Assembly: GCF_032062105.1 (NCBI RefSeq)
Contig: NW_026932975.1
Location: forward strand, 310,001-374,000
Reading direction: 5' to 3'
Source: Saccostrea cucullata
Lineage: Eukaryota
Length of the DNA stretch: 64,000 nucleotides
Shown here: positions 1 through 48,596 of the stretch, piece after piece
Numbering within the stretch: the stretch's first letter is position 1
Layout: each line of letters opens with the position of its first letter
Program-made: the position numbers and the translations under genes
Notes under the pieces: model-generated
Databases searched by the model: none
The model's input: only the letters and a program-made list of their open reading frames with translations
Told to the model about the DNA's origin: nothing

Positions 1-5
1 TATAG

Positions 6-9342
<9,337 letters not shown>

Positions 9343-13438: not shown

Positions 13439-13440
13439 TA

Positions 13441-20896: not shown

Positions 20897-21261
20897 CTAC
20901 TTGCAGCATCCTCCCTCTGATTGCTGTGTTTGTTGGCTGTTTACATGTACGCCCCCTTGTCGTGAGGGTGTTGGTCCTCCGCCTTCATTCTTGGGCAGTT
21001 TCTTAGCTAGAAAAACAGAAGTCCAACTTTTAGATATGTGTAATCTTATATGTCTAATACTTTGTAGGATTATCATGTTAAGTACAAAATCAATGTCTCA
21101 TAAATGAAGTGATACCACTGTCTTCTATACTTAGGCCAAGCTTAAAAAATTCTTTGTTTGCAGTTGCTGACCTATAATTTTTAGCTCACCTGAGCCAAAG
21201 GCTCAAGTGAGCTTTTCTGATCACCTTTTGTCCATCGTCCGTCCGCCTGTAAACTTTTAAC

Positions 21262-21293
<32 letters not shown>

Positions 21294-24200
21294 GATTTTA
21301 ACCAAACTTGGTACAAAGCATCCTTGGGTGAAGGGGAATTTAAATTGTTAAAATGAAGGGCCAGGTTCTCTCACAATTGGAGATAATCAAGAAAAGACAA
21401 TAATAGGGTGGGGTCATTAAAAAATCTTCTCAAGAACCACTGGGCAAGAAAAGCTGAAACTTATGTGGAAGCATCCTGGGGTAGTGTAGATTCTGAATTG
21501 TTCAAATCATGACCCTTGGGGATTGGGCGGTGCCACAATAGGGAATCTCAAGTTTTACATAGAAATATATAGGAAAAATCTTCTTCTCAAGAACTACTTC
21601 ACTTGGCCAGAAAACCTGAAACTTATGTGAAAGCATCCTGGGATAGTGTAGATTCTAAATTGTTCAAAGCATGACCCCCGGGGGTTGGGTGGGGCCACAA
21701 CAGGGAATCCAAATTTTACATAGAAATATATAGGAAAAATCTTCTTCTCAAGAATCACTGGGCCAGAAAAGCTGAAATTTATGTGGAAGCATCCTGGGGT
21801 AGTGTAGATTCTAAATTGTTCAGATCATGTCCCCCGGGGACTGGGCAGGGCCATAATAGGGATTAAAGTTTTACATAGAAATATATAGGAAAATTTTTTA
21901 GAAAATCTTTTTCTCAAGAACTACTTTGCCAGAAAAGCGTAAACTTATGTGGAAGCATCCTGGGGTAGTGTAGATTTTAAATTGTCCAAATTATGACCTG
22001 TGGGGTACGATGGGGTCACAATAGGTATTACAAGGGGGGAATCTGGTTAAGAATAGCATGGTCAAAGCTTCTCAGGTGGGCGATGTGGCCCATGGGCCTC
22101 TTGTTAGACTGGGTAGGAAGGTAGGCATTCTTCTTTTTTTTTTTTGAAAAAAAAAAATGTTTTCAGATTATTGTTAGATAACAAATAATGGAGCTTTTTA
22201 TAAGCCCACTAAACATGATTCATGAATAAGCTCCACTCTTGTTATAAACCACTGACTGATAAAAACAAAAGTCAAAAATTGAAAATGAAAAAGTTTCAAT
22301 ATCCTGAATAATTGAAAAAAAAAAATTACAAATGGCTAAAAATAAGTTTGGGTTGCATTTTCATTGGGTCGGTAGGCAACTGCAAACAAACAAATTTTTA
22401 TTTTAGGCCTTATTCAATACCTATTGCCAAAAATATATCGTTGACATTCATGGCTGTTTTAGCTGATGTTTCCATAAATAATAAACTGTTCTCCTCTGCA
22501 TATGCCTGGGCTTCCTATAAGAATAAAGAATACATTCAATGACAGTTTTGATATATATGATACATATGCAATTTATTTTGTTGGTCAAATAATGAACCAA
22601 AAAGTTGTATGAAGTTCTTTTAGTGAGATTTCAAACACAACATTCCTAAAATTTCCACACCATAAAACCACTAAAATTATAAATTAATTGCATTTTCCTC
22701 ATATTCATCAAATTTTTTGACAAATTCAGTTAGACATAATATTTTTCATTTTTACCTCATATTCAACCATTCTCTTTTGTGCCAAGTCTGATTTGTTCCC
22801 TGCCAGAGCAATCACAATGTTAGGACTGGCCTGTCTTTGAAGTTCTTTGACCCAGTTCTTTGCCCGACCAAAGGTATCCTGTACAAAATAAAATTTTTAC
22901 TTCAATTAAAAGATTAAAGCATCATTAAGAATGATTGTATGTTGCTTAATGTCCCTCTTGAGAATTCTTCACTCATATGGAAATGCCTTATCAAGAATGA
23001 AGACAACACATTAATGAAGGACAACTCTTTAATTTATAATTTAATTCAAAAAGTCTTTAAATGAAGCTTGAAAATTAAATATTTTCATGCAACAATTTTC
23101 ATTATCAATGTGTTTCAATGTTCTTTGCAAAGCTCCATAAATTACTTCTAATTTCATATCATGTTAATAAACATTGGTATCTTAGGCCATATAAAATTGA
23201 AATCTTTTTTCAACCAAAGCGCATCCGTTTAAGATATATAGCCGCATTGCCGATTTTATTGTATTTTTGATAAAATAAAAAGCTGGTATTGCGGGATTTA
23301 AAACGAAAAAAAATTAGACCTCATTTGTTTTGTAGTTTAGTATTCAAATATCACTTCCGGTAGCCATTTACAAAAAGATTTTGGCGGGGGTTTGAAAATA
23401 CATTCGAGGACATTACCTATGATGTTTACACGCTGTTAAGCAATGGATAAAGCAGAAATTTTGATCAGAAATGGAAAGTATATCTGTGATTAAAAAATTA
23501 TCTTTATGTTATAGAAAATTCGGAAAGTAAAATAAAAAAAAAAAACCTCCCTATCTTTTATTGCCAATAAAATTCAAAATCAATGTGTTTCGCATCCGTT
23601 TTGGAGAAAATTGGCCTGACAACCAGGGAATTAAATTTAGATAGCCTTAAAATGCTTTTTCGGGATAAGAATTTCTACTTTTAATTAGACCTTTCTGAGA
23701 AGTTCAAAGAACCTTGAAGCACACTGAGAGCCATGTAATGAAAATTGTTGCATGAAAAGATTTAATTTTCAAGCTTCATTTAAAGACTTTTTGAATTAAA
23801 TTATAAATCAAAGAGTTGTCCTTCCTGGCTGAGGGTCGGAGTCCCTTAATGATGTATGTGAATATAATTAGATATGTGAACTTGTGCCACATGCCTTACC
23901 TGATTTGTAATGTCGTACACGACGATAGCAGCCTGTGCCCCTCTGTAGTACATGGGGGCCAAACTGTGGTATCGTTCCTGACCCGCAGTGTCCCAGATCT
24001 CAAATTTCACTGTTGTGTCATCTAGACACACAGTCTGTGTTAAAAATGCAGCTGAAAAATATTTCATTCATGATAATTAGTCATCTCTGAGAATTTTTTT
24101 TTCAAAAGGAAAAATTCCACCACATACACATGTATATCGAAAATATGCTATATATCACCAGCCTGATGCCACAAAACAAGATACGGGTCATGAATAAAGA

Positions 24201-25143
24201 TCCATCTGGTCAAAGCTGGCCAGACTTCATAGCTCATAGTCAAATAAAGGTTAAGTTTTTGCTATAGAAATGTCAATATAAACAAATATTTTTTTTTTTC
24301 AGATTTTGTTTTTGATAATAGGGTTTGAATTTAATTTCTGATTTCTGTCTCTCTTCCTTCATGAATGTTGCCACTTATATTTGTTGATAAGTATACAGGG
24401 TTGTCATTGACAAATATGGTTGGAGACTGTAATTGTACTTCATATGGAAGATCAGCACACTACAATTTCTACTGCATATGTAACTACAATACATTATAAT
24501 ATTTTCCTAGTGTCTAATGCATACAACTCACCAGACTAAAATCATTATTCATGTATAAAACATTTTTGAAAAATTACAAGGGAAATCTTTGACATATTCA
24601 TAATTTGTTAAATACTGTCAAAGCACAGATATTCATGTGGGATTAAATTTCGTTTATTTCATTGTTAACAATTATCAACGAAATTAAATCCTACACGAAA
24701 TTTTATATGACTACATATTGAGTAGGATTACTTTCAAAACAATGAAATTAAATGCCCACAAAACTATTTTTGATGACAAATCAAGGACATTTTATCCCCA
24801 CGAAAATTTGTGATTCTACAGTAAAATAAATGTGAAAGCAAAAGTCTACAGACCTAACTGATGTTTTTTTTTTAAATTTTCAACAAAACCATGGGAGAAG
24901 AACACTTTTAATGAAAATTTAAGGAATATAAGAATGCCTATCTGCATCTTACTCTTAGACATCACCATTAATACAAGTACCTCCTATTGTGCTTTCCTGA
25001 TATTCATGGAACTGTCCTTTAACAAATCGTAACACTAAACTGGACTTTCCAACAGCTGATTCTCCCAACAATACAAGTTTAAACTGACAGATTTTGCCCT
25101 GGGTGGCTCCATTGGGCCTCTGTGGTCCACTTCGGCCTGCCAT
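20897..25143 (-). CDS. RAB5: Ras-related protein Rab5, 213 aa
   Basis: Exons 25143-24981, 24051-23900, 22878-22756, 22514-22421, 21006-20897 (642 nt). Motifs [36 protein letters not shown] and a C-terminal CCK prenylation site. Acceptor upstream of the ATG at 25188. The 3' UTR probably runs to an AATAAA near 18795. Confidence 0.97.
21134..22409. mobile_element. PIF/Harbinger-type MITE in the last Rab5 intron
   Basis: TTA|GGCC...TTTGTTTGCAGTTGC ... GCAACTGCAAACAAA...GGCC|TTA. Confidence 0.75.
21178..22105 (+). mobile_element. Helentron-associated non-autonomous element (HINE-like) with about 165-bp internal tandem repeats, nested in the MITE
   Basis: Head TTTTAGCTCACCTGAG plus hairpin and GTCC microsatellite; four to five repeats containing AAGCATCCTGGGGTAGTGTAGATT; tail CTCAGGTGGGCGATGTGGCCCATGGGCCTCTTGTT. 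Confidence 0.85.
23016..23824. repeat. 89-bp inverted repeat (arms 23016-23104 and 23736-23824) in a Rab5 intron
   Basis: The arms are reverse complements with 2 mismatches; spacer 631 nt. Confidence 0.9.
23185..23646. mobile_element. PIF/Harbinger-type MITE inside the inverted-repeat spacer
   Basis: TTA|GGCCATATAAAATT ... AATTTAGATAGCC|TTA. Confidence 0.65.
24615..24821. mobile_element. Tc1/mariner-type MITE, inverted copy of the 15935-16141 family
   Basis: TA|CTGTCAAAGCACAGATATTC ... GAAAATTTGTGATTCTACAG|TA; aligns in reverse complement to 15935-16141. Confidence 0.8.
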
Positions 25144-26274
25144 AGTTAGGCCTTATGAATAGTCTTTATTTCGTTAATCTTGTTAACCTGTAAATACAGA
25201 AAACTGGGATTTATAAATATGAGCCATGAAATTAAAATATCTGATAAAATTAAAAAAAAACTTACATTTTCAATATATAAAAAATCTCATGCAAGTATTT
25301 ATGCCTTCTCTCTTTCATTCATATTGCTTGGTTTGGTAATCACTAAATCAGGTAATATTTTGAAATACTGCAAATCCTAACTCATAAACTCAACTAGAGA
25401 TACCTTCATTTGTATGCATTATACAAATTCAATATTCTTCAAAGGGTGAAAAATAAATGAATAACCCGTTACGACGTGTATTGTCGATGAAAACAAAACA
25501 AAAAGTGTTGTATAAATGAGAGCCCATGACAGTGACTCTGAGTCATAAACTGTGAACAGCGATGTACATACTATATGCCATGAGAAAGAGGTGAAAATCC
25601 TTAGATCGTTATGTATACCTCTCCAATGAAAGAAAAAGCTTCATAAATCTATAAATGATACAACACGGAAGGCAGATAAAATATTGACAGCCATTCCAAA
25701 CACAATCGAACCATTTAGCAACACCACATCACGAGTTCGCTGAATTACTGTACTTACAGAGCATAAAAAAGTTATTTGTTGTGGATAAAAAGAGTATATG
25801 TTACCTCTAAAATGTATATACTTCTCTTTAGAAACGAAATATTGCCTAAAATATGAATTTTAGACACGTAAAATGCTTTATTATTACGCAGAAACACCCT
25901 CTACGACCTACAACACTCTACTTTTTGACCGGAATACATTGCGCACAAAATATAGTTCTAAATTGTATGGAAATTTATTTACTACAGCAAAGATTGAATC
26001 GAAATTGGTGATATCTTTAAGAAAACTATAATACAATAATACTGTTTTATTACTTTTAAAATGTATGAATAGTTACAATGAATTTTGCGCATTTATACAA
26101 TCAATAATTAACACACCACTATCAAAATGTCAATCAAGTGTATTACGTCAAAAACGGAAATAACAAAGTCTTCTGCTACTGTAATAATTTTTTGGTGATT
26201 TATCTACAGGAAAGTGAAACTATCAGTTGACATAATATACTTTATTATAGCATTATATTCAAATTAAATATATA

Positions 26275-26867
26275 CTCGATTCTCATTATATCGCGGGTTT
26301 CGTTGTATCGCGGTATGTCGCAAAAATATGGATACAAAGCCTTTATTCTTTTTATTGATGAACAATATTTTTATGTTGTCTGAATGTTTACTTTTATGAT
26401 GATTAAGAAGTATGGAACATCCGTTTGAAAAAAATATTTTTAAAAAAACGTAATTTTTCAGATTTTCAGTCACGTTTTTATTATCTTTAAGCATTAAATC
26501 TATAACCTTGTAAAAATTATACAATAGCTCATCTTTCAAAGGTCTTAAGTTCATGTATTTATTTACTTTTCCTGTAGAATTACATAGTAGATTCAAAAAT
26601 AAATATTGAGGTCCATGTCATCTGCAAGTTTCCATGTTTTCCTATACCGCGATACAATGAGACTCTCCAAGTTTGGAGGTAAATAAGACTTCCTGTTTTA
26701 AAAATAGACAATAACTTAAACGATACAAGCTTGAGATATAATTTTACACTAAAAAGTTAGTCCACAGATTGGTTTATTAATATTTTTTGATGAAAGTTAA
26801 AAGTAAAAAATTGGATCAACACTTTTTATGCAAAAGGATTAAGTACCGCGATATAATGAGACACCAG
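26275..26867. mobile_element. TA-flanked MITE between the Rab5 and EFHB starts
   Basis: TA|CTCGATTCTCATTATATCGCGG ... CCGCGATATAATGAGACACCAG|TA, with internal copies of the CCGCGATA motif. Confidence 0.7.
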
Positions 26868-27307
26868 TATATAATATATAATTAACGTTTTACATCTCGA
26901 TCAGTGTCAAATCGACAAATGTTCCAAATTTTATGTTTTTGTGTCAAATGAAACTTACATGCACTGTACTAATATAATAGTTTTCATTTGTTTTACTCGT
27001 GTTATTTATTTATGACCTCTTCTTTTTTCATTTAACTTCACTTAGACAGATATGGTCTAACTTTTGCAGAGTGCTAAAACAGACATAGAAAAAATGTTTT
27101 GGACGTCATCGGTTTTGTGGGTCACTAGTTTTACCACATTCTATTTGTTTTCGCATTTTCAACTTGGGACAAAATTTCCCTATGTAATGATTTCATGTAA
27201 TTATCAAAGCAAAAATGTCTTCAAGTGTCTTATTTTATTTAGACAAAGTTTTCTAATTTTGATGAAAATATTTACGAAAATAATAAAGGAAGCAAACTTT
27301 GACCTTT

Positions 27308-27321
27308 GTTGCTAAGGCCTC
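27308..27321 (+). promoter_or_regulatory. Partial RFX X-box upstream of EFHB
   Basis: GTTGCTAAGGC about 110 nt before the ATG of a ciliary-type gene; only one good half-site. Confidence 0.3.
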
Positions 27322-27424
27322 ATCAACAGAGAGAGGAGTAGGGTATGCTATATATTGGTGAAGGATTTGACAGCTGAAGCGCTGTAAAATCTCAATAATT
27401 TGGTTATTTTCTAGATAAAACAAA

Positions 27425-30400
27425 ATGACATCACAAGTTAAGCTACCCGATGTACAAATGCAAGGCATTTATTCTGGAAAATTTAAAGACTGGAGTCCAT
27501 CTATAGCCCCCGTAAGTATTTTATAGATGTTGCACTATCAGAATACAAATGTAATACTTTTCTATTATATTGTTTAAGCAAATCGTAGATACATAACTGA
27601 AAAAAGTCAATAAATCACGTCACTTTAGTTTTGTCACTTTCCTGATCAAAGATGTTTGAAATACACTAAATAAATATTTTTCTAGCATCTTGCAATAACA
27701 TCTTATTTTTTGCAGGCTGGTAAATTGACATCTTGTGGGGACACGGCTATTCAATGTTTGAAGCCAAAAGATGACAGAGTTAGTAATTAATACATGTATA
27801 ACTATAGAAGAATGAAACAAAATAAATGTCAAGTATATTATACATGCTTATAGTGCGAGCATACTCGAATACCGAGGGATGCACTTACAGCAGAAGAAGA
27901 AGAATTCAATAAATAATTTATGAAATACAATGTCTCAAAAAACAAAGAACATTATTTATTTGCAAAATCTTTTATCTTTAGCCACCATCTCCAAGTGTTA
28001 TCAGAAAGTTCAGAGCAACAGTCAGGCCAGATGCTGGACAGATGAGAGTTTTCTATGGTAAAGCTGGAGACCCCCACCAGCAGTGGGCAGAAAACATGAC
28101 CCATGGCATCAACACAATGCCATCAGATTCCTCAGGGGCTATTGTTAATCCCCCTTATAAAACCCTATTTCAACAGAGATTAGTGGACAGAAAAGAGCGA
28201 CTTTATTCCTCTCATCAGCGAGCTCCTCTTGGGAAGTCACATGACCAGTCTACTGGTCTCCCCAGAGGCCTCAACAGAGACACCTTCACCTTTGGTGTAC
28301 CTACAGAACTTGGTAAATGAAAGGCACAAAATCTATCCATTGATTTGCCATTTCCACATAATTACAATTAATTTTGACTTAATGTTACACTCATTTCCAA
28401 CACTTTAAATAGATAAACAATAAATCTGCATATAGAATTTGGCAAGGATTAGAGAGTGTTCGGCAATTTTTTTGCAACAATAATCCCAACACTTGATATT
28501 TATAGATATTGGAGCTGGTGGCTTGATAAATCCAAACAAGACTTATGCTGAGGTTGAGCAAGAATCAGCAGTGGGACATGAGCTCTATAGAAGGTCACAC
28601 ACTGAGTTTGATGTGGGAGAGAGGCACAATCGTAATTACAGTGCAAAGTATGATCCTAACTCTAAGTTTGGTATTCCTACTCCTCACCACAATGATGGCC
28701 TGATGGTAAAAACTACAATGAAGTGGCAATATGAAACACAACAGGAAAAAGCCAGTAAAGTTGTTTCCAAGAGGGTGGATGATTTCAGGGAGAGAACTCA
28801 ACCTCAGCTTGGACAGGTCCATGATCCGTAAGTATGAGAGAAACAAACACAAGCTGCAGGATGTTACTGCATGAAACTAGTTTATGAGAAACTAGAAATA
28901 TGCAACATCATAAAAAAATATCAGTACATGTATACTTATGTATTGAGGAATTGCACTCTTTTAGAACTGACTGAGGGACAAGCAGATAATGATGTCAATG
29001 ACGGCATTTTATTTTGTGCAATGAAAATTAATGTGAATAGCTATTAGGCATTAGAGATAGAACATTTAAACACTACTTTTTTTTTTATACATCTCTGTCC
29101 AGGATCAAGGACACCTTAACTGTTCCCTCTGACCACACATTTGGAATTTTGGTCAAACCTGATGAGTATGGAGCAGGAGATTTGATGCACCAGCGGGCAC
29201 CAGGCGAGTACCTCCGGGGTAAGGACAGACAAAGGGGAGTTCTGGCTGCCATCAGACAACACCTGAAGAAAGCCAACTATCACAACTTTGATGATTTAGT
29301 CCAGGCATTCAAATTCTATGATAAGGTACATTTTTTCTTTTCAATGTATGCAATATCATTTTCATGCATCTGTCATTCTCATGCAGCTGTACATATTCAA
29401 CCCAATATAATTTGATGAACAGTGGTGATTCTATTTATTTACAGGACAACAAGGGTAAAATAGATATCCATGATCTGAGAGAGGCTTGCTTACAATATCA
29501 CCTCCCTGTGGAGCCAGAACTTTTGGAACAGCTATTATACTACTGTGATTCAAACAAAGATGGCTTTATCAACTATTTAGAATTTGCCAACTTCCTTAAC
29601 TGGAAAGACAAGATGAAATCAGGTTTCCCAGAAAAGACAGGTAATTACTTTATTGAAAAATTGCATGTTTTCAGTTTCACTTATTTTGATCTTGCAGCAG
29701 TAAATTTCAAGCAATTTCATTTCATGACTTTGCAGAGCTGGAGAAACAAGCAGAGACGAGGAGATCTAGTTCTAGAGCTTCATCCCGGGCGGAGACTACT
29801 CTTGATCTGACTGAGCCTTCAGACCTCCAGCCCAAATCTCCCCAGAGTGCTGAGAGTACCCCTAGAGTTCTACAGAAACAAATAGACAAAGCCATTGGGG
29901 ATCATCGAACTCAGAGCAGCATGATCAATGCTGTGGTTGGTGGCGTATCCACACAAGGTACAAAAATACAACATCCCGTGATGTTTTTCAGAATTATCTT
30001 TTAAATAATAAATAACTTAGAAATGAAAGAGAAAAAAAAGTTTTAAAAATACAGATATTTTTCTGAAGCTAGTCCTTATTACAAAGTTTAAAAAAAAATG
30101 TTTTAATGAAAGTGAAAGCCCCCCCCCCCCTTCCCTTCCAAAATGACTTAATCATCTTGCATGAAATCAAACCAAATGTAAAGACTAGCTATTATAAATT
30201 TTTAACAGGATATAGAACCTATGGTGTCCCAACCATCAGGACAGATTTGCGTGCTCCCAGAATCAAGAGAGTGTGTGACACCAAGAATTACGGAGATGAG
30301 TCGGATGCTTATGGCCTAGTTAATCCCTCTATCTTCAGTCGGAGAGGAGTCCATGAAAAAGATTTCTTACTGCCTAGAAGTAAAGAAGAGGTAAGTTCTA

Positions 30401-30946
30401 GTGAATACAGATACTGCTAATCAGTTTTTATTCATTGAACTTTGATTTTGCATGATTAAATTAGACTGTCTGACAATATTTCTCTTATTATAGATATATG
30501 TACAAGAATAAATTAAATTCCTGAAAATATAATTTTTTGTATAAAAATATACCAAATAACTTTATATTGTTTAAATAAGGTATCATGCAAATTCTACAGT
30601 AAATAACCTCCAATTTAATTGGTATATTTTAACTTGCATATTTTTTTGTGTGCAAATTTAAATGTTCAATAGCAAGAATTATAAAAATTCAGATTCCAAC
30701 CTTCTAATATTAATTATTATCTGTTAAATTTGCTGATTGTCTATACCATATGGAATAACTTTTCAGATTAGGGATATCTTTGCCAATGTTGGCACTTTGA
30801 TGACGGGGGATACCTTTGAGGAGCTGTATAGGACTGCTGCGGCCCAGCACCCTAAGGGACATGTCAGTGTAGAGTCATTCCGGGGGGTGCTGGACGATGT
30901 CCAGGCTCAGAAAATAATCACAAAAGAACACCCACTGGCAGTGTGA
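27425..30946 (+). CDS. EFHB: EF-hand domain-containing family member B (CFAP21), about 601 aa
   Basis: Exons 27425-27511, 27716-27778, 27982-28312, 28506-28827, 29103-29325, 29445-29640, 29736-29957, 30209-30390, 30767-30946 (1806 nt, in frame). EFHB-like blocks RVFYGKAGDP, RAPLGKSHDQ, YGVPTIRTDL and NYGDES; EF-hands DKDNKGKIDIHDL and DSNKDGFINYLEF. The start codon is inferred. Confidence 0.93.
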
Positions 30947-35708: not shown

Positions 35709-36970
35709 CAGGTTGGGCACACACCCCCAAATGGTCATTAAACCCCCGTTTGGTGGTCAATCGCCCATATCGGCGTCTTTTTTACCTACCAAATGGTGGT
35801 CTTTTTTATTCAAATCCAAATTTTATTAAAATAAAGCAAAAGCGCATTTACTTAGGCATTGGAGAATTTTAATTAACATATTCCTCGTACATTTAATGCA
35901 ATTAAGTCAATTTTCCATGTGGAATTTCTTTGGAACTTCGTAAAAACAAAACCCACGGTTGTGCGTGACGGCCGAACTATTTGCTCAAACAATACGAAAA
36001 AGTATTTTATTGTGTATAGTTTGGTAAAAAATATATTTAAACAAGAGGTGTTAGTCTAGAGAAGTAACTTTTCAAACGATCTTTCAATCTGCGTCTGTAT
36101 AAATCTCTATAAAATCCCGTTAAACACGAGCTCCTCGTATTGTATTCGTATGGTGGGCACTTACTGCTATAATATTCATTTTTTCTACATTTGAATGTAA
36201 CATTTATTTTTTATTTTCTTTTAGGATGAAGTTACGATTTCTGTGCGACCCTTTGTGGTTTCATATGCATATCTATGATGTATCTACTATATTTATTAAA
36301 AAATTTTTGAATAAAAAATTTACAAAGTGACATTTGCAATTATTCTTATTTCTATTCCAAGGTTAGAGTTTTTGAGCGATTATTTTATCAAAAATTCACG
36401 GCATGTCGTATTTTTGTAAAAAATAAAGCCATAACATACGAAATAAACAATATAAAAGAGAATTTTTACCTTTCATCGTATTTTACTTTTTGAAAATTTA
36501 CACTAATGGGCCTCCGTAGTGAAATCAGTCTTTTGACCCAAGTTTGGAAAAGATCGTCATTTTTAATTGGTTAAGATAATTGATCGGTTACCCGGATGAC
36601 AGGAATATGAAGTGATAAACACGATTGATAGGCTCAACTACGCGCGAGATGGAGGGAATTTTTCTTTTTAAGTTAAAACACAGAAAAGTTACTCTTGTTT
36701 ACATAGGTGACGATTTTGTCAAATATTTGAACGACACTGCGCAAAGATGTCCGCGTTGAAATTCTGATTTTTTTCGTTCAAAGTTTAGAAAAATATCTAT
36801 ATTTTATTCCCCGTGAGTTGAAATTATGCGCCATTTCATGTTATTGCAGAGAACTGAACCAAACGATTTTTCTCTCCCATTTGGTACATGTAGGTAATAA
36901 AGACGCCGATATGGGCGATTGACCACCAAACAGGGGTTTAATGACCATTTGGGGGTGTGTGCCCAACCTG
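35709..36970. mobile_element. Young 1262-bp non-autonomous DNA transposon, long TIRs, 5-bp TSD
   Basis: ATTAA|CAGGTTGGGCACACACCCCCAAATGG ... CCATTTGGGGGTGTGTGCCCAACCTG|ATTAA; TIRs match over about 88 bp with 2 substitutions and one 6-bp indel; no transposase ORF. Confidence 0.9.
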
Positions 36971-38121
36971 ATTAAATCCCATCTAACAACAAAAGAAAGC
37001 ATATTGTCTGAATGAATTTCTATCTACCTGTAGGGTAATAAATAAATATAAATAAATAAATTTTACAATAATTCTTCCACAAGACTGATAAAATCTTATT
37101 GAATTTTTTTTTAGTTTAATTTTGGTCTTGAATATATAGTTCAAGAATTAGTTTTATCAGAGCTTTTAAGAAAGTTATTCTTTTGCCCTAAAGTAAATGT
37201 AGTATTTAATGATTAAACACAGTAAAACATTTTGATAAGGAAGTCCTGGAGATATGAATTTCTAGTTCTTTTAAACACTTGTAACCAATCCTTTCATCCT
37301 TCCATTCTTACAAGAAAGATATAAAAGGGCTGAGACAACCTAACGCCCAACCCCCAACCCCCACCCACCCACCCTTCTTTCCCCAATCCCTCACATCCCA
37401 TTTCCCTATGAGTGAGTTTTACTGTATGTGATTGATACAATGAATCATTGAAGTAAAGATGCAATTTTGGATATGCTTTAAAGATTTTATTTTTGTTGTA
37501 TATGAAGATGAAGTAACATATTATAGTTTCCCTTTTATTCATGACAAAGCTCTTTTAAGATTACTAGTACTTAAATAAGAACAAAGCCTCTTATATACCA
37601 TTGTACAGTTAAATCCCAAAACCATATATGACCGTTATTTTTTTTTTTCATTTATAAAATGTGAAAAAGCAATCATTAAAAGACAGAATTGAAACGAATT
37701 TAGTAAAACAGTAATCAAGTGTCAAAGTACAATTGCCCTCAATTGCTTTAGTCATTTCCCATTGCTGAAATATCCTCATTATGTTTGTACTTATAAAATT
37801 GATCAATACCACTTAACCACAATGATATATCACTAGGCATAATATCTTCCAATAACTTCAGTAGTAACAAAATTATATCAAGCACCTCCTCACATCTGTT
37901 CTCAATGATAAAAAAAAAATCATCAAAAATATATTATGAGAAATTTAAAATGCATAAGAACTAATGCAGTCTGTTATAATTATGCACTGATATCCAAGTT
38001 CTTGAAAAAGTCAGTAACCTGGTATGTTAAAATAAATATTATATATCACAGTCAAAGAACAACACTCAGTTTTAAAATCAGTAATTCATGGATCTTTTTC
38101 CTTGTTTATAATTAATTTTTA

Positions 38122-41100
38122 CTAAACTCCACATCCTGGTAATAATGCAACCATAACTGTAATATTGTTCTTGGCCCCAGCAAGCAACGCAGCCTGAACA
38201 AGGTGCTCTGCCATAGTGCGAGCCAGATCCCTCTGAAACTGATCCCGAGTCATAGAGGGATTATAGTTAGATAGTCGTGAGTTGCTAGGCAATGACAGGA
38301 AGTCACCATATGTCTCCACGTCAGCCTCATTTCCAGATTCCTCGTCATACGGACCAACATGGCTGCCATTTTCTGTCTTCATATCCTCGTCAGAATTGTT
38401 TTTCTCATTGTCTATCATCGTGGAAGCCCTGGGTGACATCTTCAGGCGGTCGTCCGCTGGTTCTGAGAAGGACACTCTTCGTGGGGTCTGGGTGATCAAG
38501 GAAATATTGGCCTGACTGTTGGACTCCTCTATTAAAGGCCTGAGAGTGGTGCTTATTTTACTTGGGGCTGGTATAAAGTTGCTAGGGAGTAACTGAAAGC
38601 ACAAAAATTAATTCAATGCTTGTTGGGAAGAGCATATCAATAGTAAAAACACATTTTTTTAAAAGTGCACAAAATATATGCATATTCATTACAATGTCAT
38701 AACTGGGATTTGCATTATTAAAATTTAAGCAATAGATGTACAACTGTGGTTGACCATACCTTCAAAAGTAGGTTAGCAGCCTCTGTCTCAGAGAAAACTT
38801 CCCAGACTCCATGAGAGGCTAGCAGCAGAAACTGGCAGTACTGGTCCACAGCGACTGACATAGTGTGTGGCTCCACAATAACACTATTCTTCAGCACCAC
38901 ATCACCATGGTTACCGAGTCCTCGTGTGGTGGCTACCACTCCTCTTACCCTCATTTCCCTCTCACTCAGACTTATGTCTGCTCCTACAGAACATCAGTAT
39001 ATACATGTACTGATAGTAAATAATTGAAACTTTTGTTATTGTTCATTTTACTAAATGTATGCAAAATAAAATTTCCTCCTGTTTTAAATTCAATTGTACA
39101 GTTAACTGAAATTTTGGACTGCTATATGTGCAGGTGCCATCTTTTTAGGAAATATCACTGACCTGCTTTGATAACACGGTTCTTTTCCTTTTCATTCTGT
39201 GGTGTATGGTCCTTTGTGAGTTTGTATGCCCTGTTTCCTCTAACCAGTACACCATGGACATTTCCTTATTTGCCATGAAATAAATCAATAAATATTACGC
39301 ATCAAGAAAAGGAAGAAAATTACAAGGAAATTATTAAGTGTTTATCTACAGCAAAGTGTTTTTGTTGTAATGTAAAAACAGCAGTACTACTACATGTACC
39401 AGTGCATACCTGCATTGGCTAGGTAGATCATGCCCATTTCTCGGGGTGGATCAAAGCCCATGGTACTTGCTGGCTGTGATTGGTCCAATTTGTTCTCCAG
39501 CGTAGGAGGGCGGGACATGTAAATGTCAGTCTTTCTTTCCTCGTCCTCCTCTGCCACTGGAGAAATCGGATACCCAGATTGCTCCGACTTATCCCCACCC
39601 TGTATAACAACGGTCAAGGCCGAACAACCACTCCACCTGACCTTTGACCTTTCGTCTTTGCCATAGGACAATAAGATGTCAGTCAAGTAGTAGGACTTGG
39701 CGAGAGCAGACTCCATTTTGATTGTAAAAGGTGCCTTTTGTTTCTTTTTTCTGTTTTCTTTCTGTTCGTTGTCTTTTTTGGCAGACTTGATGGCCCTGGG
39801 AGTGATGAGTTCTTCGTACTTGTCTTCACACATGTTAATGATCTGATGGACAATATCCACACTGCTCTCATGGAGGACTACTCGCTCGCTCTCCTTGGTG
39901 TCAGGACGCTCAAATGAGTACTACACAAAAAAGAAAAAAAGAAAGGAATTGATCTTTACATTTTAAATTTATACTACTGGGTAGGTATAAATAAAGGAGA
40001 AAAGAATATACATAAAGTCTATTACCAGGTATTCAGCTTGTTGCTGAATATTTTTGTACCTACTGGAAAGAGCTGCTTCATTTTTTTATTTTTACCTTTT
40101 ACACATCATTGGTGGATAAATAGAAATTGAGCCAATTTTCCAAAGTACGAGGGGTGATCAAAAAGTGCGCAAACTATCTCTATATCTACAAAACCATAAT
40201 TAATTCAGCTAAGAAAAAAATTTAGTACAGACATAGCCATACACAAGTTCTATAAACAGCATATGCTGAATAAAGCTTTGTTCCTTGTTTCTGATGTCAC
40301 AATGTGAAAATGACGTCACTATGTAGGTCACATGTGACGAAAAATAGTGTCTCAGTCGTACTCGTTCAAGAAACGACTTTAAAATTTATCCAATATCTTA
40401 GAAATCCTTTTGACGTGGCGTATTATAATTTGAACTATAAATTTGATCAATAATTGGATTTATCGTTTTAGTGAGGAAAGGCAGATGGTTAAAAATGTCA
40501 CTTGTTATGTTGCATAGTGAAAGCAAGTTTGAAAAGAGGTGTGTTTTTAATTAAGCAATTTGCTATCAAAGACGTCCGATATACACTTTGAAAAATAGTT
40601 GAATATTTTAACAATTATATAATTATCATTTACCTAAGATATGGTTTACTTTAGATTTTAAACAAATTAGATATGATAAAAGGGGGCACCCACTATTTAT
40701 GCACCTTGTATGAATGTCTCTCCCGAGACAGAAGATTTTGGTTTTGATGATCGCCATGCTTATTTTTGAAAAGGATATTCTTATCCACCCATTCTGTTGC
40801 CAAGATTTGACCATTTCTGGCAAATGAACTGTTCTTGTTACAGAAATTAACTTACATGGAAAGAAATATAAAACTCAGAAAAATATTTCAGCTTTTGTGA
40901 CAGAACGCAATGGAGGGGGGTCACGTGACCGCCTATATCACGTGATTTGCGCATGAGCAGAATGGTGGCAGATGTGCATTAAAGTCGGAACGGACTAATT
41001 TAAAAAGTAATCAACACTGAAACCAAATATTGTTTCTTTTATGAAAGTTATTCAATTAGTTCGCTAACTCTTTGATCACCCCTCATATAGACAGCTTCAA

Positions 41101-44100
41101 GCAAAAGATTTGCCAAATTTTTAATGAATGCATTTAGTTGAAAATAACTTGGAGGATTTCTATCCTTCTTTTTTTTTCTTTCTATAGGTTTTCTAATGAA
41201 CTTAGGAATAAAGTGCCTACAAGTGCAACAGTTTCTAATGAATCCAGTAGATGTACTAGTAGATAGGGAAGAAATGAGTTCCTTATGAACATGTACCTGT
41301 GAGACATCAGTAGTGTCCAGGGCATTTGTAGCCATTGTGGATTTGGTCTTCGGATCAAACTTGGTCATCTCGTTGAGCAAAAGATGGTGGAGCTCAGCAG
41401 CAGCCATGTCCGCAGCAAATCTCCCATGGTAACCATCAAACAAACCAAAATAACACTTATTTCTGTCCTCCCCAAAGCAGTCCTGGTAAACTTTAGTGTC
41501 CTCCATGTAACTCTTCCATCTGAAATGAGAATATAAGCTCAATGAGAACACACGGTGATAGAATTTCGTTTCAAGTTGAAATGTTCTGAGCAAATTAATC
41601 CTTCATTTCATCCTCAACAAAGCAAACAAGAAAGACTTTGTTCCAATTAAAAAATGAATAAGAAAAGCCAATAATTTGGTCAAATTATTATCTGTGTGTG
41701 TATTTTTTTGACAGCTTGACAAGAAATAACTTATCTCAAACAACTTTTAGAGGATTGTATACCTGTCGTTCTGTGAGGAACACATGCCAAGAGCAAACAC
41801 ACAGGTCGGGCTGCAGTTGACAGCGACTCCACGGACATCTGTGTTTATCTCTTCTCTGTTCTGCCGCTCCAGTTCAAATGTACCCTAAACATTCCATCAA
41901 TATCATCAATACCTCAAAGACATATAGTTAAACCCAGTTATAAATTAAACCCAGTTATAAAGAACTTGCTTATAAGGAAATCTTGATTAAAAGGAATTCT
42001 TTTAAATCTCTTAGACAACATTTTACCAAGTTCCTTGTAAGGATATTAATTAAGAATCTTGGTTATAATAAAAAAATATTCGGGTCCCATTGGTTTCCTA
42101 AGAGCCAAATTTTAATATACACTTCTCTTCATTTGAAATCATGCACATAAAATTAAACTTCAGAATTTATACAGTATACTACTGTAACAATATATGCAGA
42201 GCATTGATGTTCCATTGACTGTCATGGCTATAAACTTTCAAGATCATTTTAATATCTGTTCAGAAGTTATTTTATGGAATGATTTAAAAACGTAATGTTC
42301 TATAATAAAGTCAGTACTATGCACCATGCTTATATTTTGAATAATTAAAAAAGTATACCTGCACATCAGCTTTAAGAAATTCATAAGCATCATTGAGTTC
42401 TTGTATTGCCTGGAGCTGTTTTGGTGTTTCTTTTTGTTCACGAATCTTTCGCAGTATAATCTGACGTCTCTTTCTGAGGCCATCTATTGATGTTGGTTTA
42501 TTTTTACCCTGGTATTTCATCACCTCCAAGGCATCATGGTATACCCGGTGTTCGTGCAGGGCTCGGAGATTGATGTATATTTTGCATCGATCACATCGTA
42601 TTGAGATGTCAGGGTTAGAGGGGAGTTCTGTAATGTTGGTCTCCGGGGTATCTGAAAAATAAATATTGGTTATGCATCATTATCAACTTAATTTGCAAAT
42701 AATTTCCATAAGAGAAATCAAAGAGAGTATGCTAGGTCATTAAGGGTTTGCTGATTATATGTACATATGGTTTTTTGATGAAATTTGTATATATTTTTCC
42801 AAAACTGATTAATACTGCTCTAGGGACAATATGAAATAAGAGGCCCATGGGCCACATCACTCACCTGAGAAGCTTTGACCATTCTGTTCTTTACCAGATT
42901 TTCCCTTTGTAATACATATTGTGACCCCACCCCAACTGATCATAATTTAGACAGTTTGAAATCTACACTACCCCAGGATGCTTCCACATAAGTTTCAGCT
43001 TTCCTGGCCCAGTAAACTTTTGAGAAGAAGATTTTTAAAGATTTTTCCTATATATTTCTATGTAAAACTTTGATTCCCCATTGTGGCACACGCCCAACCC
43101 CTAGGGGTCATGATTTGAACAATTTAGAATCTAAATTACTTACAGGATGCTTCCACAATAAGTTTCAGCTTTTCTCCCAGTGAAATTTTTGAGAAGAGGA
43201 TTTTAAAAGATTTTTCCTATATATTTCTATGTAAAACTTGGATTCCCCATTGTGGCCCCGCCCAACAGGGTCATGATTTGAACAATTTGAATCTACATTA
43301 CCCCAGGATGCTTATAACATAAGCTTTCAGCTTTTCTGGCCCAGTGGTTCTTAGAAGAGGATTTTAAAAGATTTTTCCTATATATTTCTATGAAAAACTA
43401 AGAAAACCATTGTGTCATGAATATGGGGGTCATGATTTGAACAATTTATAATCTACACTACCCCAGGATCCTTCCACATAAGTTTCAGCTTTTTTTGGCC
43501 CAGTGGTTCTTTAGAAGAAGATTTTTTAATGACCCCACCCTATTTTTGTCTTTTCTTGGTTATCTCCCCTTGTTAAAGTTAAAATTTATTCACCCGTAGC
43601 CACCTGTGTACTATAATCAAGGACAGGTCATAAGCATTTGAGAAAAAATAAACTCCCTTCTAACACAGTTATACACAAAGACACACAAACAGACACACAA
43701 ACAAATATTACTGCTTACTATACTATATCACAATGAAATTCTTTCTTTTTAACTTAACAAAACTTAATTGTCTTTAAAGGTATTGTAGACATTACTTTTT
43801 TCCACAGGGTCATTATTCCGCGGAATCTTTATTTCTGTTCAATTGGTTGCTAGATATTTACGCAGATATCTAAAGACTCTCATTATATGCCTGATATGTG
43901 TATTAAGTTCGATGGTACAAATTTCCATGGAAAGTTTGTGACCACATACATAGCGTAAATTAATACCACACGGAAAAAAGTACTTCAGAATCTACAGTAT
44001 TACACTTACATCCATTAACAATGTACATCCATTCCAACAAATGCCCATATTTGAGTTTAAGGATCTCATTGTGTCTTTTGGCTGTCACTTCCATGACAAG

Positions 44101-47100
44101 ACTTGATTTTCTACAGGCCTCCATAATTACTAATTAAGGACACGAAGGACCCAACAGCAAAAATCAGCTTATCTCATTGAAAAAACAATTTCTTCTCGGA
44201 GAGTTTCACAAAACACAGAGAAATCTCTGTAAGCTCCAATAATGCAGAGGGTTTCATCCAAAAAATTAATAAGTCCACACCTTTAGACAGGTATAATCAC
44301 TTTATCGCTACACATTAACCCTGATGTAATAGCATGGATGTAGATAGAGCCTGGGCTTTGTGTACAGGTGAATCTATAGGTCCAACACAATTAAACAACC
44401 AACCAGGCAGTATGGAATCAATTCAACCAGATTTCATTAAAAATCAATGTCAGATTATAATGTTATCCAATACAATTAACAATCCTACCTCACCAAATTC
44501 AAACACATTTTAATTAAATCCCCCCAAAAACCTCCATTTTTTCCTTTTGTAAGATATTAAATATTAAAGTTTCATTATTTGTGACATCAATATGTTTATT
44601 GTTGGGTGACTGTAAAAAGATTCTTAAGGGTTTTTTTTCACCCCCAAATTGTGACGGATCAATTTTGAGCAAGCATGCAAAATCCATTAACTACATGTAA
44701 ATATTTTCCCAAACAAAACTCCATTTTTGTTCCTGCTTTGTTATTTCCTATCAGATCTATCTATTGATCCTTTTCTGTGGAAGAATTTTTCAATCTAATT
44801 CCAATCTCAATCAATGGATATAATGCTCCCAGGTAAGGTAAATCGTTCAATCTGTTTTTTCCAAGCAATTATCACAAACATTAGCATCCTTTGTAGCAAA
44901 GAAAGCATGTGGTATAAACTCAGATCAAAATTGCAGATAATTATAAAACCTAAAAGAAGCTGTTCATTTCTTTCACACTGATGAAAATTTTTATTTGAAA
45001 TCCCAGAAGATCCCATGCATCTGATGTGAAGCCCTGATTCAAACCACGCAGTTGCCTCCCCTTGTTGAGAAGTTTGGTTTTGAAAAGTTGAAAGAAATTA
45101 TTGAATCATCAACATGTCCCATTAAATCATTTGTACTATCTGAGAACACCTGCATAGCAAAACCACTGCAACTTCACATGTCAGTCATTTTAAATCAGTC
45201 TGCACTGAGTTCCGTTTGGACCTCACTTTCTACTCTGAGAATCAGCAAAGCCTCTTTTATAAAGTCCTGCATTGTTGTGATATCAGATCTATACAACAGG
45301 AATAAAACATAAAGAAAAACGCAGAGAAGAACCCCAGTCAGGTGCCAGTCCATTATAATGGCAGAGATTACCAGGGGATTCTCGGCCTGCTCAGAATAAA
45401 AGGAGGCAAAATCTGGTGTTAGGCCAAGCAAAGTAAATCATGTGTGTGATGGAATAAAAAAAAATTATAACGGGATCCAACTCTACATCTATAACTGTCC
45501 CAATCCTGATGCAACTGTAAGTTATTAATATGAATTCCATCTTGAAGTAAATAAATAAAAAAAGAACACCAAAAAAATCTGGTTTTGCTATGCAATATAC
45601 ATGTATAACTTTTATCTAGTCTGAGTACAATGTCTTTTATATCCATTTATCTAAGAGAATTTTGTTCAGCTGTAAAGTAGAAATGTTTTAATTCAAAAAA
45701 ATATTTTTTTTAAATGTCAAGAGAGTTAAGCTTCTGACGGCAATTAATTAGTGAAAGTTGAAATATTTACTCTGCAAATTTCTACTCACCACTGAAACAG
45801 GAAATTACATGTGTTTGGTCTTAGAAAAATAGCCACAATCTGCTTATAAATTAAATCTTACAATGGGATGAGTAATTCCCTTTGTTAAATAGAGAAATAC
45901 TATCAACAAATTCAATGGGAATCATTCTAAAGAGAAATATCAGCTGTCTAAACAAAAACATGTATGTTATGTGACTTTATTTATGCATATTATACATTGG
46001 AATACATGTACATGTATAAAGGGATATGTGTGTAAATAACTGATTGAGGTTTGTAAACTATTAACTGTACAGTAAATCAAAGTAAGTATGATAGTTACTC
46101 AATTTGGCAAAATCACAGATATTCTTTTTTTTTCTCTATTTATTTCTTTAACATTCCATTTCTATTCTGAACTGTATAAATTTGTTTATGTCTGATTTAC
46201 CAATGCTGCAAATTAATTTTTGAACACTGCGTGTGAAATACTGGCTATTAAAAAGTGTGAGAGTGGGGGTAGGGGGGTATTAAAGGCCTAAACCTATGGC
46301 CATTATCCCTAATATAGAAAAGTAATATATTTTAAATTCATGTTTTGATTACCCATTTTCTATAAAATACATAGTTCATTTCTACTGTAGAAGTACGATT
46401 TTCCACGTGGTATCAATTTACGCTATGTATGCGGTTACAAATTTTCCGCAGAAATTTGTCCAAGCGTACTTAATATAAACATTAGGCACATAGAGACAAT
46501 CTAGAAAATCTGCATAATTTTCTACCCGCGGATTAAACAGAAATTGAAATTCTGTGGATTATGACCCCGTGGAAAAAAGTACGTCTATAGTATATAATGA
46601 ACTACAGTGAAACCTGTATAATCTGATATGCAATGGGTGACAAATTTTGTGTTGGAAAAAAGATGCTATTGGAGTACAAAGTGTAAAAAAAGTAAAATGG
46701 AAATGAAAATAATTTTTATTTTAAATTAGCTCTACTTATCATTACCATGTGCTTCGTATTTTTTTTTTCTATTACCTGAAGATAAAGAAAGAGATATTCA
46801 AGGATGTATATGGATGTAAGAGCCCCACTCTATTAAACACAGAAATTCAAAGTTTATGGAAAGGCATACATGCTCAACATAACTCTTTCATGATTTCTAT
46901 TTAATGTCCAGGGGCAAAAAAGATATGATCAACTGAGTCCCCCTCCTAACACCAGAACCCTTGACTCTGGGGCAAAAAATTCACAATTTTGGAAGAGACA
47001 CCATTACTCATCATAATCATGCACCTATTTTATCAGCTAAATATACAGGAGAAGAGATCTTTGAAGAATTTATGCATTTTCACTATATGATCATCAGAGT

Positions 47101-47546
47101 CTCATCTTAATTCCAGAACCCCTGACCATGGGGCTATGAATTTCACAGATTTGGTAGATAGCTCAGTGTTTATTTAACATCCCTAAAACCAGTTCAACTG
47201 CTTGGTATCCAGGACTATTGCAAACCAGTCTTATTGGATGTAGTGGAATTCATTTTTAAATAAATCAGAATTCTTCATCCCTGGAACTTCATTATAAGCC
47301 TGTTTTACCATGCAAAGCATTTCCAAAACTTGTTTTATAGCATGAATCATCCACACATTAGCCAGTCAGAATACACACTTTCTACTAGTTGTGGGGAAAT
47401 TGATCTTTGACCTTACCTGATCTGTAGATATTCTCCCCTTTTGCTGGGTGTGTCGGTTGTTCTTCCTCTTCATCAAACCTGTCCGAGTACTCATCCTCCG
47501 TGGCTTCCTCAAACATAGGTGTAGTCTCCTTGTCCATCGACGTCAT
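38122..47546 (-). CDS. PP2D1: Protein phosphatase 2C-like domain-containing protein 1, about 691 aa
   Basis: Exons 47546-47417, 42651-42359, 41884-41763, 41519-41297, 39920-39410, 39264-39163, 38983-38760, 38592-38122 (2076 nt, in frame). Motifs WKSYMED, FGLFDGYHG, KFDP, VRWSGCSA, LANAGNVH, TRGLGNHGD, LASHGVWEV and NNITVMV, plus an N-terminal CxxC...HxxxH as I recall in vertebrate PP2D1. The first exon is the least certain. Confidence 0.88.
40148..41085 (+). mobile_element. Internally deleted mariner element
   Basis: TA|CGAGGGGTGATCAAA ... TTTGATCACCCCTCA|TA. A remnant at about 40960-41010 reads WWQMCIKVGTD*FKK, like the C-terminus of mariner transposases (RWxKCIxxxGDYxEK). Confidence 0.8.
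42835..43575 (-). mobile_element. Truncated HINE-like element, same family as 21178-22105
   Basis: Starts AAGAGGCCCATGGGCCACATCACTCACCTGAG (reverse complement of the family tail); four repeats containing AATCTACACTACCCCAGGATGCTT. Confidence 0.82.
43783..43997. mobile_element. TA-flanked MITE, copy 1 of a local trio
   Basis: TA|TTGTAGACATTACTTTTTTCCACAGGGTCA ... GGAAAAAAGTAC...TCTACAG|TA. Confidence 0.75.
44010..44124 (-). CDS. PP2D1: Candidate alternative first coding exon of PP2D1
   Basis: ATG at 44124, 38 open codons (MEACRKSSLVMEVTAKRHNEILKLKYGHLLEWMYIVNG) and a GTAAGT donor in phase 1, compatible with exon 42651. Confidence 0.5.
46385..46590. mobile_element. TA-flanked MITE, copy 2 (inverted)
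   Basis: TA|CTGTAGAAGTACGATTTTCCAC ... GTGGAAAAAAGTACGTCTATAG|TA; reverse complement of copies 1 and 3. Confidence 0.78.
46820..47210. repeat. Degenerate repeat fragment, about 160-bp period
   Basis: CCAGAACCC[T/C]TGAC...GGGGC...TTCACA.ATTT.G recurs at about 46950 and 47112. Confidence 0.5.
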
Positions 47547-48582: not shown

Positions 48583-48596
48583 CTTATCCTAGCAAC
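48583..48596 (-). promoter_or_regulatory. RFX X-box-like motif in the probable PP2D1 upstream promoter
   Basis: GTTGCTAGGATAAG on the minus strand, beside forkhead-like GTTTACA (48602-48608) and GTAAACA (about 48502). Confidence 0.35.

What the first reader, a model, noticed from the sequence alone, without database searches (positions are those of the whole stretch)
20897..47546. Rab5-EFHB-PP2D1 gene trio: probable microsynteny shared with human 3p24.3
Seen: Rab5(-) and EFHB(+) are head-to-head with ATGs 2.3 kb apart, followed directly by PP2D1(-). Recalled, not checked here: human EFHB, RAB5A and PP2D1 are consecutive genes at 3p24.3, with EFHB and RAB5A divergent. Here the EFHB-Rab5 pair is flipped relative to PP2D1 but all three stay adjacent. 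The RAB5 and OSBPL3/6/7 paralogues also lie largely on HOX-paralogon chromosomes. Inference: a block kept since the bilaterian ancestor, linking an endosomal GTPase with two cilia/sperm-type genes, which suggests shared cis-regulation or a functional module.
Basis: partly seen in the sequence, partly recalled or inferred. Interest (0 to 1): 0.75.

Follow-up and report, generated by a model that had tools for sequence, protein, structure and literature searches.

The report
Ancient Rab5-EFHB-PP2D1 gene neighbourhood
In this DNA, likely from a rock oyster, a cell-trafficking gene (Rab5), a cilium-structure gene (EFHB) and a phosphatase-like gene (PP2D1) sit side by side as they do in many other animals; this is a real but already catalogued ancient gene neighbourhood, likely held together mainly by an on-switch region shared between the first two genes.

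Summary
Observation confirmed: intact Rab5(-, 213 aa), EFHB(+, 601 aa) and PP2D1(-, 691 aa), start codons of the first two 2,281 bases apart. The third gene is a true PP2D1 orthologue. The linkage is ancient but already published: Robert et al. 2022 (PMC8851819, supplement 4) list these three families as microsyntenic block 59, 'Bilateria novel', with all three in 7 of its 11 species. A bryozoan-like contig has the same order and strands. Best reading: Rab5 and EFHB share a short divergent promoter region, so the pair stays together and flips as a unit; PP2D1 is a looser neighbour. A TTGACCT + X-box-like motif sits upstream of EFHB in the oyster and two bryozoan-like loci (suggestive only). 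A protein-level module is not supported: PP2D1 lacks key catalytic aspartates, is spermatid-specific and dispensable in mouse. No RNA reads were laid, so start sites are predicted. The scan had not noted this trio on other DNA. Ordinary; interest low.

The parts
20897..25143 (-). Rab5 coding sequence, 5 exons: 25143-24981, 24051-23900, 22878-22756, 22514-22421, 21006-20897; 213 aa ending in a CC prenylation-type motif
   Evidence: Gene model; Pfam Ras; all 16 PDB hits at E<=1e-12 are Rab5A/B/C
25187..26959 (-). Predicted 5' UTR intron of Rab5 (acceptor before 25187, candidate donor after 26959), placing the Rab5 start site within about 350 bases of the EFHB promoter motif
   Evidence: Splice-site sequence only; not confirmed by RNA
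27299..27317 (+). Composite motif: TTGACCT (nuclear-receptor-type half site, label recalled) two bases before GTTGCTAAGG (RFX X-box-like half site, label recalled), about 110-125 bases upstream of the EFHB ATG
   Evidence: Same composite, same strand, in the Rab5-EFHB interval of L026 (9809) and L032 (2104)
27343..27414 (+). Predicted short 5' UTR intron of EFHB
   Evidence: Splice-site sequence only; not confirmed by RNA
27425..30946 (+). EFHB (CFAP21) coding sequence, 9 exons: 27425-27511, 27716-27778, 27982-28312, 28506-28827, 29103-29325, 29445-29640, 29736-29957, 30209-30390, 30767-30946; 601 aa
   Evidence: Gene model; Pfam EF-hand and EFHB_C; 7 of 7 PDB hits are EFHB/CFAP21-type chains; tree
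38122..47546 (-). PP2D1 coding sequence, 8 exons: 47546-47417, 42651-42359, 41884-41763, 41519-41297, 39920-39410, 39264-39163, 38983-38760, 38592-38122; 691 aa; probable pseudophosphatase
   Evidence: Gene model; identical to a RefSeq PP2D1; homologues; tree; active-site columns
44010..44124 (-). Alternative first coding exon of PP2D1 (38 codons)
   Evidence: 38 of 38 identical to the N-terminus of RefSeq isoform X2 (P0344); related N-termini in Ostrea and Crassostrea isoforms
48588..48596 (-). X-box-like half site GTTGCTAGG about 1 kb upstream of the PP2D1 ATG
   Evidence: Pattern scan; 1 of 4 such sites in the window, two others lie in the last coding exon of PP2D1, so weak

Best explanation
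This is an intact Rab5-EFHB-PP2D1 gene block that is also found in other bilaterian animals and is likely kept because Rab5 and EFHB start back to back in a predicted short shared promoter region that a chromosome break would damage, while PP2D1 is likely a looser neighbour. Steps. Shown: the three genes, their strands and orthology; the same order and strands in a bryozoan-like contig; the head-to-head pair in a second one; linkage in a published table. Inferred from gene numbering: spiralians have PP2D1-EFHB-Rab5, vertebrates and one hemichordate PP2D1-Rab-EFHB, which one inversion of the Rab5-EFHB pair with both breaks outside the shared interval would explain. Predicted: the two start sites lie a few hundred bases apart; the housekeeping Rab5 promoter keeps the region open and an RFX-type site on the EFHB side switches EFHB on in cells that build motile cilia or sperm tails. 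The three proteins would work separately: Rab5 on early endosomes (established knowledge), EFHB inside the axonemal doublet microtubule, PP2D1 as a probably inactive PP2C-fold protein of late sperm cells.
For: Head-to-head Rab5/EFHB in 3 of 3 loci in which both genes were seen as DNA: window (2,281 bases between ATGs), L026 (about 950) and L032 (about 2,640). Consecutive gene numbers PP2D1-EFHB-Rab5 in scallop (T24504-06) and Lingula (g13889-92), PP2D1-Rab-EFHB in Ptychodera (g2718-20, Rab unnamed) and Chelonia (XP_007053297-99); Rab5+EFHB without a PP2D1 row in Strigamia, Lottia and Euprymna: the pair outlasts the third gene in 3 of the 10 block-59 species that have an EFHB row. Outer flanks differ between window (OSBPL3/6/7, innexins), L026 (DHDPS-family gene, RPS19, nuclear receptor) and vertebrates (KCNH8, KAT2B). 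Of 16 composite 7+6-base motifs shared by the L026 and L032 intervals, 1 occurs in the 64-kb window, and it lies in the Rab5-EFHB interval on the same strand. Irimia et al. 2012 (PMC3514665, passages): 54.8% of conserved human pairs are head-to-head against 26.7% of controls. Quigley and Kintner 2017 (PMC5245798, passage): motile-cilia gene promoters are rich in RFX motifs.
Against: No RNA was laid, so start sites, UTR exons and co-expression are untested. The motif was first seen by eye in all three loci; with 6-base seeds the held-out test does not discriminate (43 hits in the window, 2 in the interval, both the same site, about 1.5 expected), and L026 and L032 are related animals. Sea urchin gene numbers (Rab5 SPU_012112, PP2D1 012114, EFHB 012115) would put PP2D1 between Rab5 and EFHB if they follow gene order, which would break the pair. 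EFHB occurs without Rab5 upstream in L014 (4.5 kb read), L016 (ORMDL instead) and L042 (1.9 kb read), all long-branch and unnamed. PP2D1 stays with the pair in 7 of 10 block-59 species with EFHB, which is a lot for a mere passenger. The Rab orthogroup of the published table is broad (Rab5/21/22/31) and the Rab row is unnamed in three deuterostomes.
Confidence: 0.55

Rival explanations
1. EFHB and PP2D1 are co-regulated motile-cilium or sperm-tail genes that share an RFX-dependent regulatory domain; that, as much as the Rab5 promoter, keeps all three together.
For: EFHB and PP2D1 records are consecutive or 2 apart in 6 of 16 species where both were found, within 25 numbers on one chromosome in 4 more; PP2D1 stayed adjacent although the pair flipped; X-box-like half sites lie upstream of both genes in the window; mouse Pp2d1 peaks in spermatids.
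Against: PP2D1 has no row in 3 of 10 block-59 species with EFHB and lies on another scaffold than EFHB in Aplysia; 5 of the 16 species show only the same chromosome; 2 of 4 GTTGCTA[AG]G sites in the window are in coding sequence; in human and mouse PP2D1 is testis-restricted whereas EFHB is also in airway cilia (PDB 7ung; tissue recalled).
Confidence: 0.22
2. Neutral leftover: the genes were neighbours in a gene-dense part of the bilaterian ancestor's genome and have simply not been separated in slowly rearranging lineages.
For: Robert et al. infer 256 new blocks at the bilaterian node, mostly kept in lophotrochozoans and ambulacrarians, against 45-56 in shuffled genomes; linkage is absent in several loci that still have EFHB; order is not fixed.
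Against: All outer neighbours have been replaced while the core stayed; vertebrates lost 84% of such blocks yet kept this one; orientation and a candidate motif are kept between oyster and bryozoan-like loci.
Confidence: 0.19
3. Functional module: Rab5, EFHB and PP2D1 proteins act together (for example endosomal delivery to cilia controlled by a phosphatase), and linkage co-ordinates them.
For: Only the linkage itself, and that two of the three genes are tied to cilia or sperm.
Against: EFHB is a lumenal microtubule inner protein (PMC10973386 passages), out of reach of an endosomal membrane GTPase (inference); PP2D1 lacks the DG-motif aspartate in 35 of 35 aligned sequences, has no PP2D1-named relative among 50 PDB hits although axonemal structures are in the bank, and its knockout mouse is fertile; an eel gene model fuses a Rab5 to a KAT2 gene, showing a vertebrate Rab5 copy with no EFHB or PP2D1 on that side.
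Confidence: 0.04

Closest known systems
Microsyntenic block 59, 'Bilateria novel', Robert et al. 2022 BMC Genomics (PMC8851819, supplementary file 4); vertebrate part also as block 9252
   Same: Same three gene families (OG0000334 Rab5 group, OG0003628 EFHB, OG0007510 PP2D1); same order as scallop and Lingula by gene number.
   Different: The table gives no strands or promoter data; no oyster or bryozoan row was among the 14 EFHB rows in the held (cut) file; some species add TAF5, NUB1, PIKFYVE, SLC35F5 or extra Rab paralogues, of which a second Rab gene was looked for and not found in the window.
Vertebrate EFHB-RAB5A-PP2D1 locus (human 3p24.3, chicken chromosome 2, cattle chromosome 1)
   Same: Same three orthologues adjacent; Rab5 next to EFHB.
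   Different: RAB5A lies in the middle, so the pair is flipped relative to PP2D1; flanks are KCNH8 and KAT2B; vertebrate EFHB is 833-879 aa against 601.
Conserved ancestral microsyntenic pairs with bidirectional promoters (Irimia et al. 2012; HSPE1-HSPD1; also PRKN-PACRG, a housekeeping gene head-to-head with an axonemal gene, seen only in a search listing)
   Same: Unrelated genes in kept head-to-head orientation at short distance.
   Different: Co-expression is documented for HSPE1-HSPD1, not here; whether RAB5A-EFHB is in Irimia's list could not be seen (supplement unavailable).
PPM-family pseudophosphatases PHLPP2 and TAB1 (PMC12002173, passages)
   Same: PP2C fold with loss of metal-binding residues.
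   Different: PP2D1 keeps the two N-terminal aspartates and has lost the later ones; its activity was not assayed in anything read here.

Membership tests
Rab5 subfamily | Ras-family GTPase whose nearest named relatives are Rab5A/B/C | tested here: met
   Pfam Ras E 1.4e-18; 16 of 16 PDB hits at E<=1e-12 are Rab5 (exon 1 only)
EFHB / CFAP21 | EF-hand pair plus EFHB C-terminal domain PF25325 | tested here: met
EFHB / CFAP21 | GFG-type microtubule-binding repeats and nearest relatives named EFHB | tested here: met
   Five [TKRSPV][FYH]G candidates by a loose pattern; PDB hits; tree
PP2D1 orthogroup | Closer to vertebrate PP2D1 than to other PPM phosphatases | tested here: met
   blastp to three vertebrate PP2D1: 210-253 bits over about 670-690 residues; other PPMs in PDB at most 61 bits over about 115 residues by phmmer (different programs); Atlas top clusters are chordate PP2D1/PPM, 0.97 and 0.96
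PP2D1 orthogroup | Single-copy family whose tree follows the species tree; shared RWSG signature | tested here: met
   Quick tree of 24 rows, no non-PP2D1 outgroup; W of RWSG in 35 of 35 rows
PP2D1 orthogroup | Reciprocal best hit against the whole human proteome | not testable with these tools
   No human proteome on hand
Active PPM (PP2C) phosphatase | Full set of metal-binding aspartates | tested here: not met
   D189 and D210 kept; N428, H518 and N677 stand where the ABI1 alignment has D; position 518 is not D in any of 35 rows, 428 is D in 4 of 35, 677 in 25 of 35. Role of these columns is established knowledge.
Microsyntenic block (Robert et al. definition) | Three or more orthologues with at most five intervening genes, in several lineages | tested here: met
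   No intervening gene in window or L026; published rows
Co-regulated head-to-head pair (Irimia et al. criteria) | Kept 5'-5' orientation | tested here: met
   Window, L026, L032; human orientation recalled only
Co-regulated head-to-head pair (Irimia et al. criteria) | Start sites under 1 kb apart | tested here: inconclusive
   ATGs about 950 bases apart in L026, so met there by geometry; in the window only predicted from splice signals
Co-regulated head-to-head pair (Irimia et al. criteria) | Conserved intergenic sequence | tested here: inconclusive
   One short composite motif; significant-looking with 7-base seeds, not with 6-base seeds; the three intervals otherwise align poorly
Co-regulated head-to-head pair (Irimia et al. 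criteria) | Correlated expression | not testable with these tools
   No expression data obtained
Genomic regulatory block | A developmental regulator whose enhancers lie in a bystander gene | tested here: not met
   None of the three genes is a developmental transcription factor or ligand

The most novel reading that the evidence does not exclude
A motile-cilium regulatory cassette older than 550 million years: a nuclear-receptor half site coupled to an RFX X-box, still recognisable between oyster and bryozoans, rides on the back of the Rab5 housekeeping promoter and drives EFHB and, by looping, the pseudophosphatase PP2D1, so that the block marks PP2D1 as an overlooked cilia/sperm-tail scaffold and should break where motile cilia are lost.
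Probability: 0.15. Interest if true: 0.5.

Novelty: already known. Interest (0 to 1): 0.24.

Why it matters
As it stands it is one of some 250 catalogued bilaterian gene blocks. Its small added value: strands and distances show that the Rab5-EFHB pair is the stable core, it is one of the minority of such blocks kept in vertebrates, and a short promoter motif shared between a mollusc and bryozoan-like animals offers a cheap test of why a housekeeping gene stays tied to a cilia gene. It also flags PP2D1 as a probable pseudophosphatase across animals.

Tried and rejected
No whole genome was held, so no genome-wide control for gene order or motif frequency. RNA runs holding 11-15% of the sampled words were listed (20 of 24 rows) but none was laid; they are not used as evidence. 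The Rab5 search of 50% representatives gave mostly fragments and no usable gene-order data apart from the eel Rab5-KAT2 fusion model. Of 58 EFHB loci from metagenome contigs, 2 held Rab5 and 1 held PP2D1; most are transcripts or too short to show neighbours, and those with some flank but no partner (L014, L016, L027, L042, L051/L052, L056) are reported as misses or uninformative. Accession numbers were not consecutive in Pinctada (122 apart) and Mactra (96 apart), same chromosome; Nematostella shows only the same chromosome, so a pre-bilaterian age is neither shown nor excluded. Supplements of PMC4729200 and PMC13508932 hold no EFHB/RAB5/PP2D1 entry; those of PMC3514665 could not be read and may list the pair. 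Full-text searches for the gene names together found only GWAS or copy-number gene lists, no paper that discusses the trio. A second Rab gene in the window was looked for and not found. OSBPL as a block member rejected. No complex or fold was predicted, since no binding is claimed. The shuffle test (2, 3 and 16 of 2000) is post hoc and not relied on.
Full report
The observation. The PP2D1 model is identical over 691 residues to a Saccostrea cucullata RefSeq protein and a second isoform uses an alternative first exon at 44124-44010, so the window is very likely from that rock oyster or a close relative. Outside the trio lie the 3' part of an oxysterol-binding protein gene nearest to ORP3 and three innexin genes.

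Orthology. Rab5: 16 of 16 PDB hits of exon 1 at E<=1e-12 are Rab5A/B/C. EFHB: Pfam EFHB_C and EF-hands, 7 of 7 PDB hits are EFHB/CFAP21-type chains from axonemal structures, and the protein sits among bivalve EFHBs in a quick tree of 55 rows. A formal reciprocal test against the human proteome was not possible.

Linkage elsewhere, from DNA. A scan of metagenome contigs with an EFHB alignment gave 58 loci. L026 holds all three genes in the same order and strands within about 10 kb; its PP2D1 groups with Watersipora and Bugula (100% SH-aLRT), so it is bryozoan-like. L032, whose EFHB groups with L026, holds Rab5 exon 1 head-to-head with EFHB. Misses: L014 (4.5 kb upstream, 4.9 kb downstream), L016 (ORMDL upstream), L042 (RsfS and a weak CWC25 hit downstream), L027 (8.7 kb downstream) and L051/L052 (5 kb upstream of an incomplete EFHB) show neither partner; the rest are transcripts or too short. 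Flanks of L026 (DHDPS-family gene, RPS19, a nuclear receptor) share nothing with the window's flanks.

Linkage elsewhere, from record numbers. Among 16 species with both an EFHB and a PP2D1 record: consecutive or 2 apart in 6 (Sinanodonta, Nucella, Littorina, Haliotis cracherodii, H. rufescens, Diadema antillarum); within 25 numbers on one chromosome in 4 (Lytechinus variegatus, L. pictus, D. setosum, Lineus); only the same chromosome or contig length in 5 (Pinctada, Mactra, Mya, H. asinina, Nematostella); different scaffolds in 1 (Aplysia). Numbers are a proxy for position, not a map. Vertebrate order EFHB, RAB5A, PP2D1 comes from single passages in PMC10172703 (chicken), PMC13570792 (cattle) and PMC5387319 (human 3p24.3, as C3orf48); PMC6786245 lists RAB5AB next to EFHB for salmon.

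Already in print. Robert et al. 2022 (PMC8851819; I read parts 1-3 of 7 of the text, searched supplementary file 4 and read its part 5; the file is cut in storage) list block 59, 'Bilateria novel'. Of 11 species seen in that block, 7 have rows for the Rab group, EFHB and PP2D1 (Mizuhopecten, Lingula, Saccoglossus, Ptychodera, Strongylocentrotus, Branchiostoma, Latimeria), 3 have Rab5 and EFHB only (Strigamia, Lottia, Euprymna) and 1 only Rab-group genes (Acanthaster); Chelonia and Lepisosteus carry the trio in block 9252. No cnidarian, oyster or human row was among the 14 EFHB rows held. The Rab orthogroup is broad and unnamed in three deuterostomes. The paper infers 256 new blocks at the bilaterian node and loss of 84% of them in vertebrates. 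Full-text searches found no paper that discusses this trio; the supplement of Irimia et al. 2012 could not be read and may list the pair.

How it most likely works. Gene numbers give PP2D1-EFHB-Rab5 in scallop and Lingula, as in the window and L026, and PP2D1-Rab-EFHB in Ptychodera and turtle, as in chicken, cattle and human. One inversion of the Rab5-EFHB pair converts one order into the other without a break between the two start regions; which order is ancestral is not settled. This, the survival of the pair without PP2D1 in three species, and the replacement of all outer neighbours point to the head-to-head interval as the constrained part. Head-to-head pairs are the commonest class of deeply kept neighbours (PMC3514665 passages). 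Splice signals predict an untranslated first exon for each gene, which would bring the start sites within a few hundred bases; this is unconfirmed because no RNA was laid. A composite TTGACCT + GTT(G/A)CT motif lies on the EFHB strand in the interval of all three loci. Trained on the two bryozoan-like intervals alone, 16 composites with 7-base seeds give 1 hit in the 64-kb window, at this site; with 6-base seeds 61 composites give 43 hits, 2 in the interval, no more than expected. I had seen the motif by eye first, so this is suggestive only. Reading it as a nuclear-receptor half site plus an RFX X-box half is recalled; RFX motifs are typical of motile-cilia promoters (PMC5245798 passage). Against the model: sea urchin numbers would place PP2D1 between Rab5 and EFHB, and some long-branch loci have EFHB without Rab5.

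No protein module. EFHB binds the inner wall of the doublet microtubule (PMC10973386 passages). Mouse and human PP2D1 are testis-restricted, mouse expression starts late in spermiogenesis and knockout males are fertile (PMC7436996 passages; PMC10761714 passage). The oyster PP2D1 has N428, H518 and N677 where an active plant PP2C has aspartates; the column of H518 is never aspartate in 35 rows. PPM enzymes need two or three metal ions held by such residues (PMC12002173 passages), so PP2D1 is probably a pseudophosphatase (inference; not assayed). An eel gene model that fuses Rab5 to a KAT2 acetyltransferase shows a vertebrate Rab5 copy directly followed by KAT2; that it is the RAB5C-KAT2A copy is recalled.

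Verdict. Real, ancient, and already catalogued. Interest 0.24.

Noticed in passing
window 53743-54900, 58455-59606, 62377-63783 (minus): Three tandem single-frame innexin genes; the first two are 88% identical in DNA over 1.2 kb, a recent duplication.
   Followed up: partly
window 1-7700 (plus): 3' part of an oxysterol-binding protein gene, nearest PDB match ORP3; not linked to the trio in L026.
   Followed up: partly
window 21373-22105 and 42835-43573: The same element of about 750 bases with internal repeats of about 160 bases sits in the last Rab5 intron and in the first PP2D1 intron in opposite orientation, 82% identical; probably a mobile or satellite-type repeat.
   Followed up: no
window 12700-17900: Nest of degenerate repeats, including two 88% identical copies of about 1.2 kb, between the OSBPL gene and Rab5.
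   Followed up: no
window 44010-44124 (minus): Alternative first coding exon of PP2D1, kept in Saccostrea, Ostrea and Crassostrea isoforms.
   Followed up: yes
L026 17200-18500: In the bryozoan-like locus PP2D1 is itself head-to-head with the housekeeping gene RPS19.
   Followed up: no
L014 4531-6237 and L016 1705-3414: Intronless EFHB genes on long branches near the non-bilaterian rows, with other neighbours (ORMDL in L016).
   Followed up: partly
P0276 (Synaphobranchus kaupii record KAJ8364566.1): Gene model that fuses Rab5 to a KAT2/PCAF acetyltransferase, likely a mis-joined pair of neighbours that mirrors RAB5A...KAT2B on another paralogon.
   Followed up: partly
PMC8851819 supplement 4, block 59: Scallop, Lottia, Saccoglossus and Acanthaster carry two to four Rab5/22-group genes in this block; the window has only one.
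   Followed up: no
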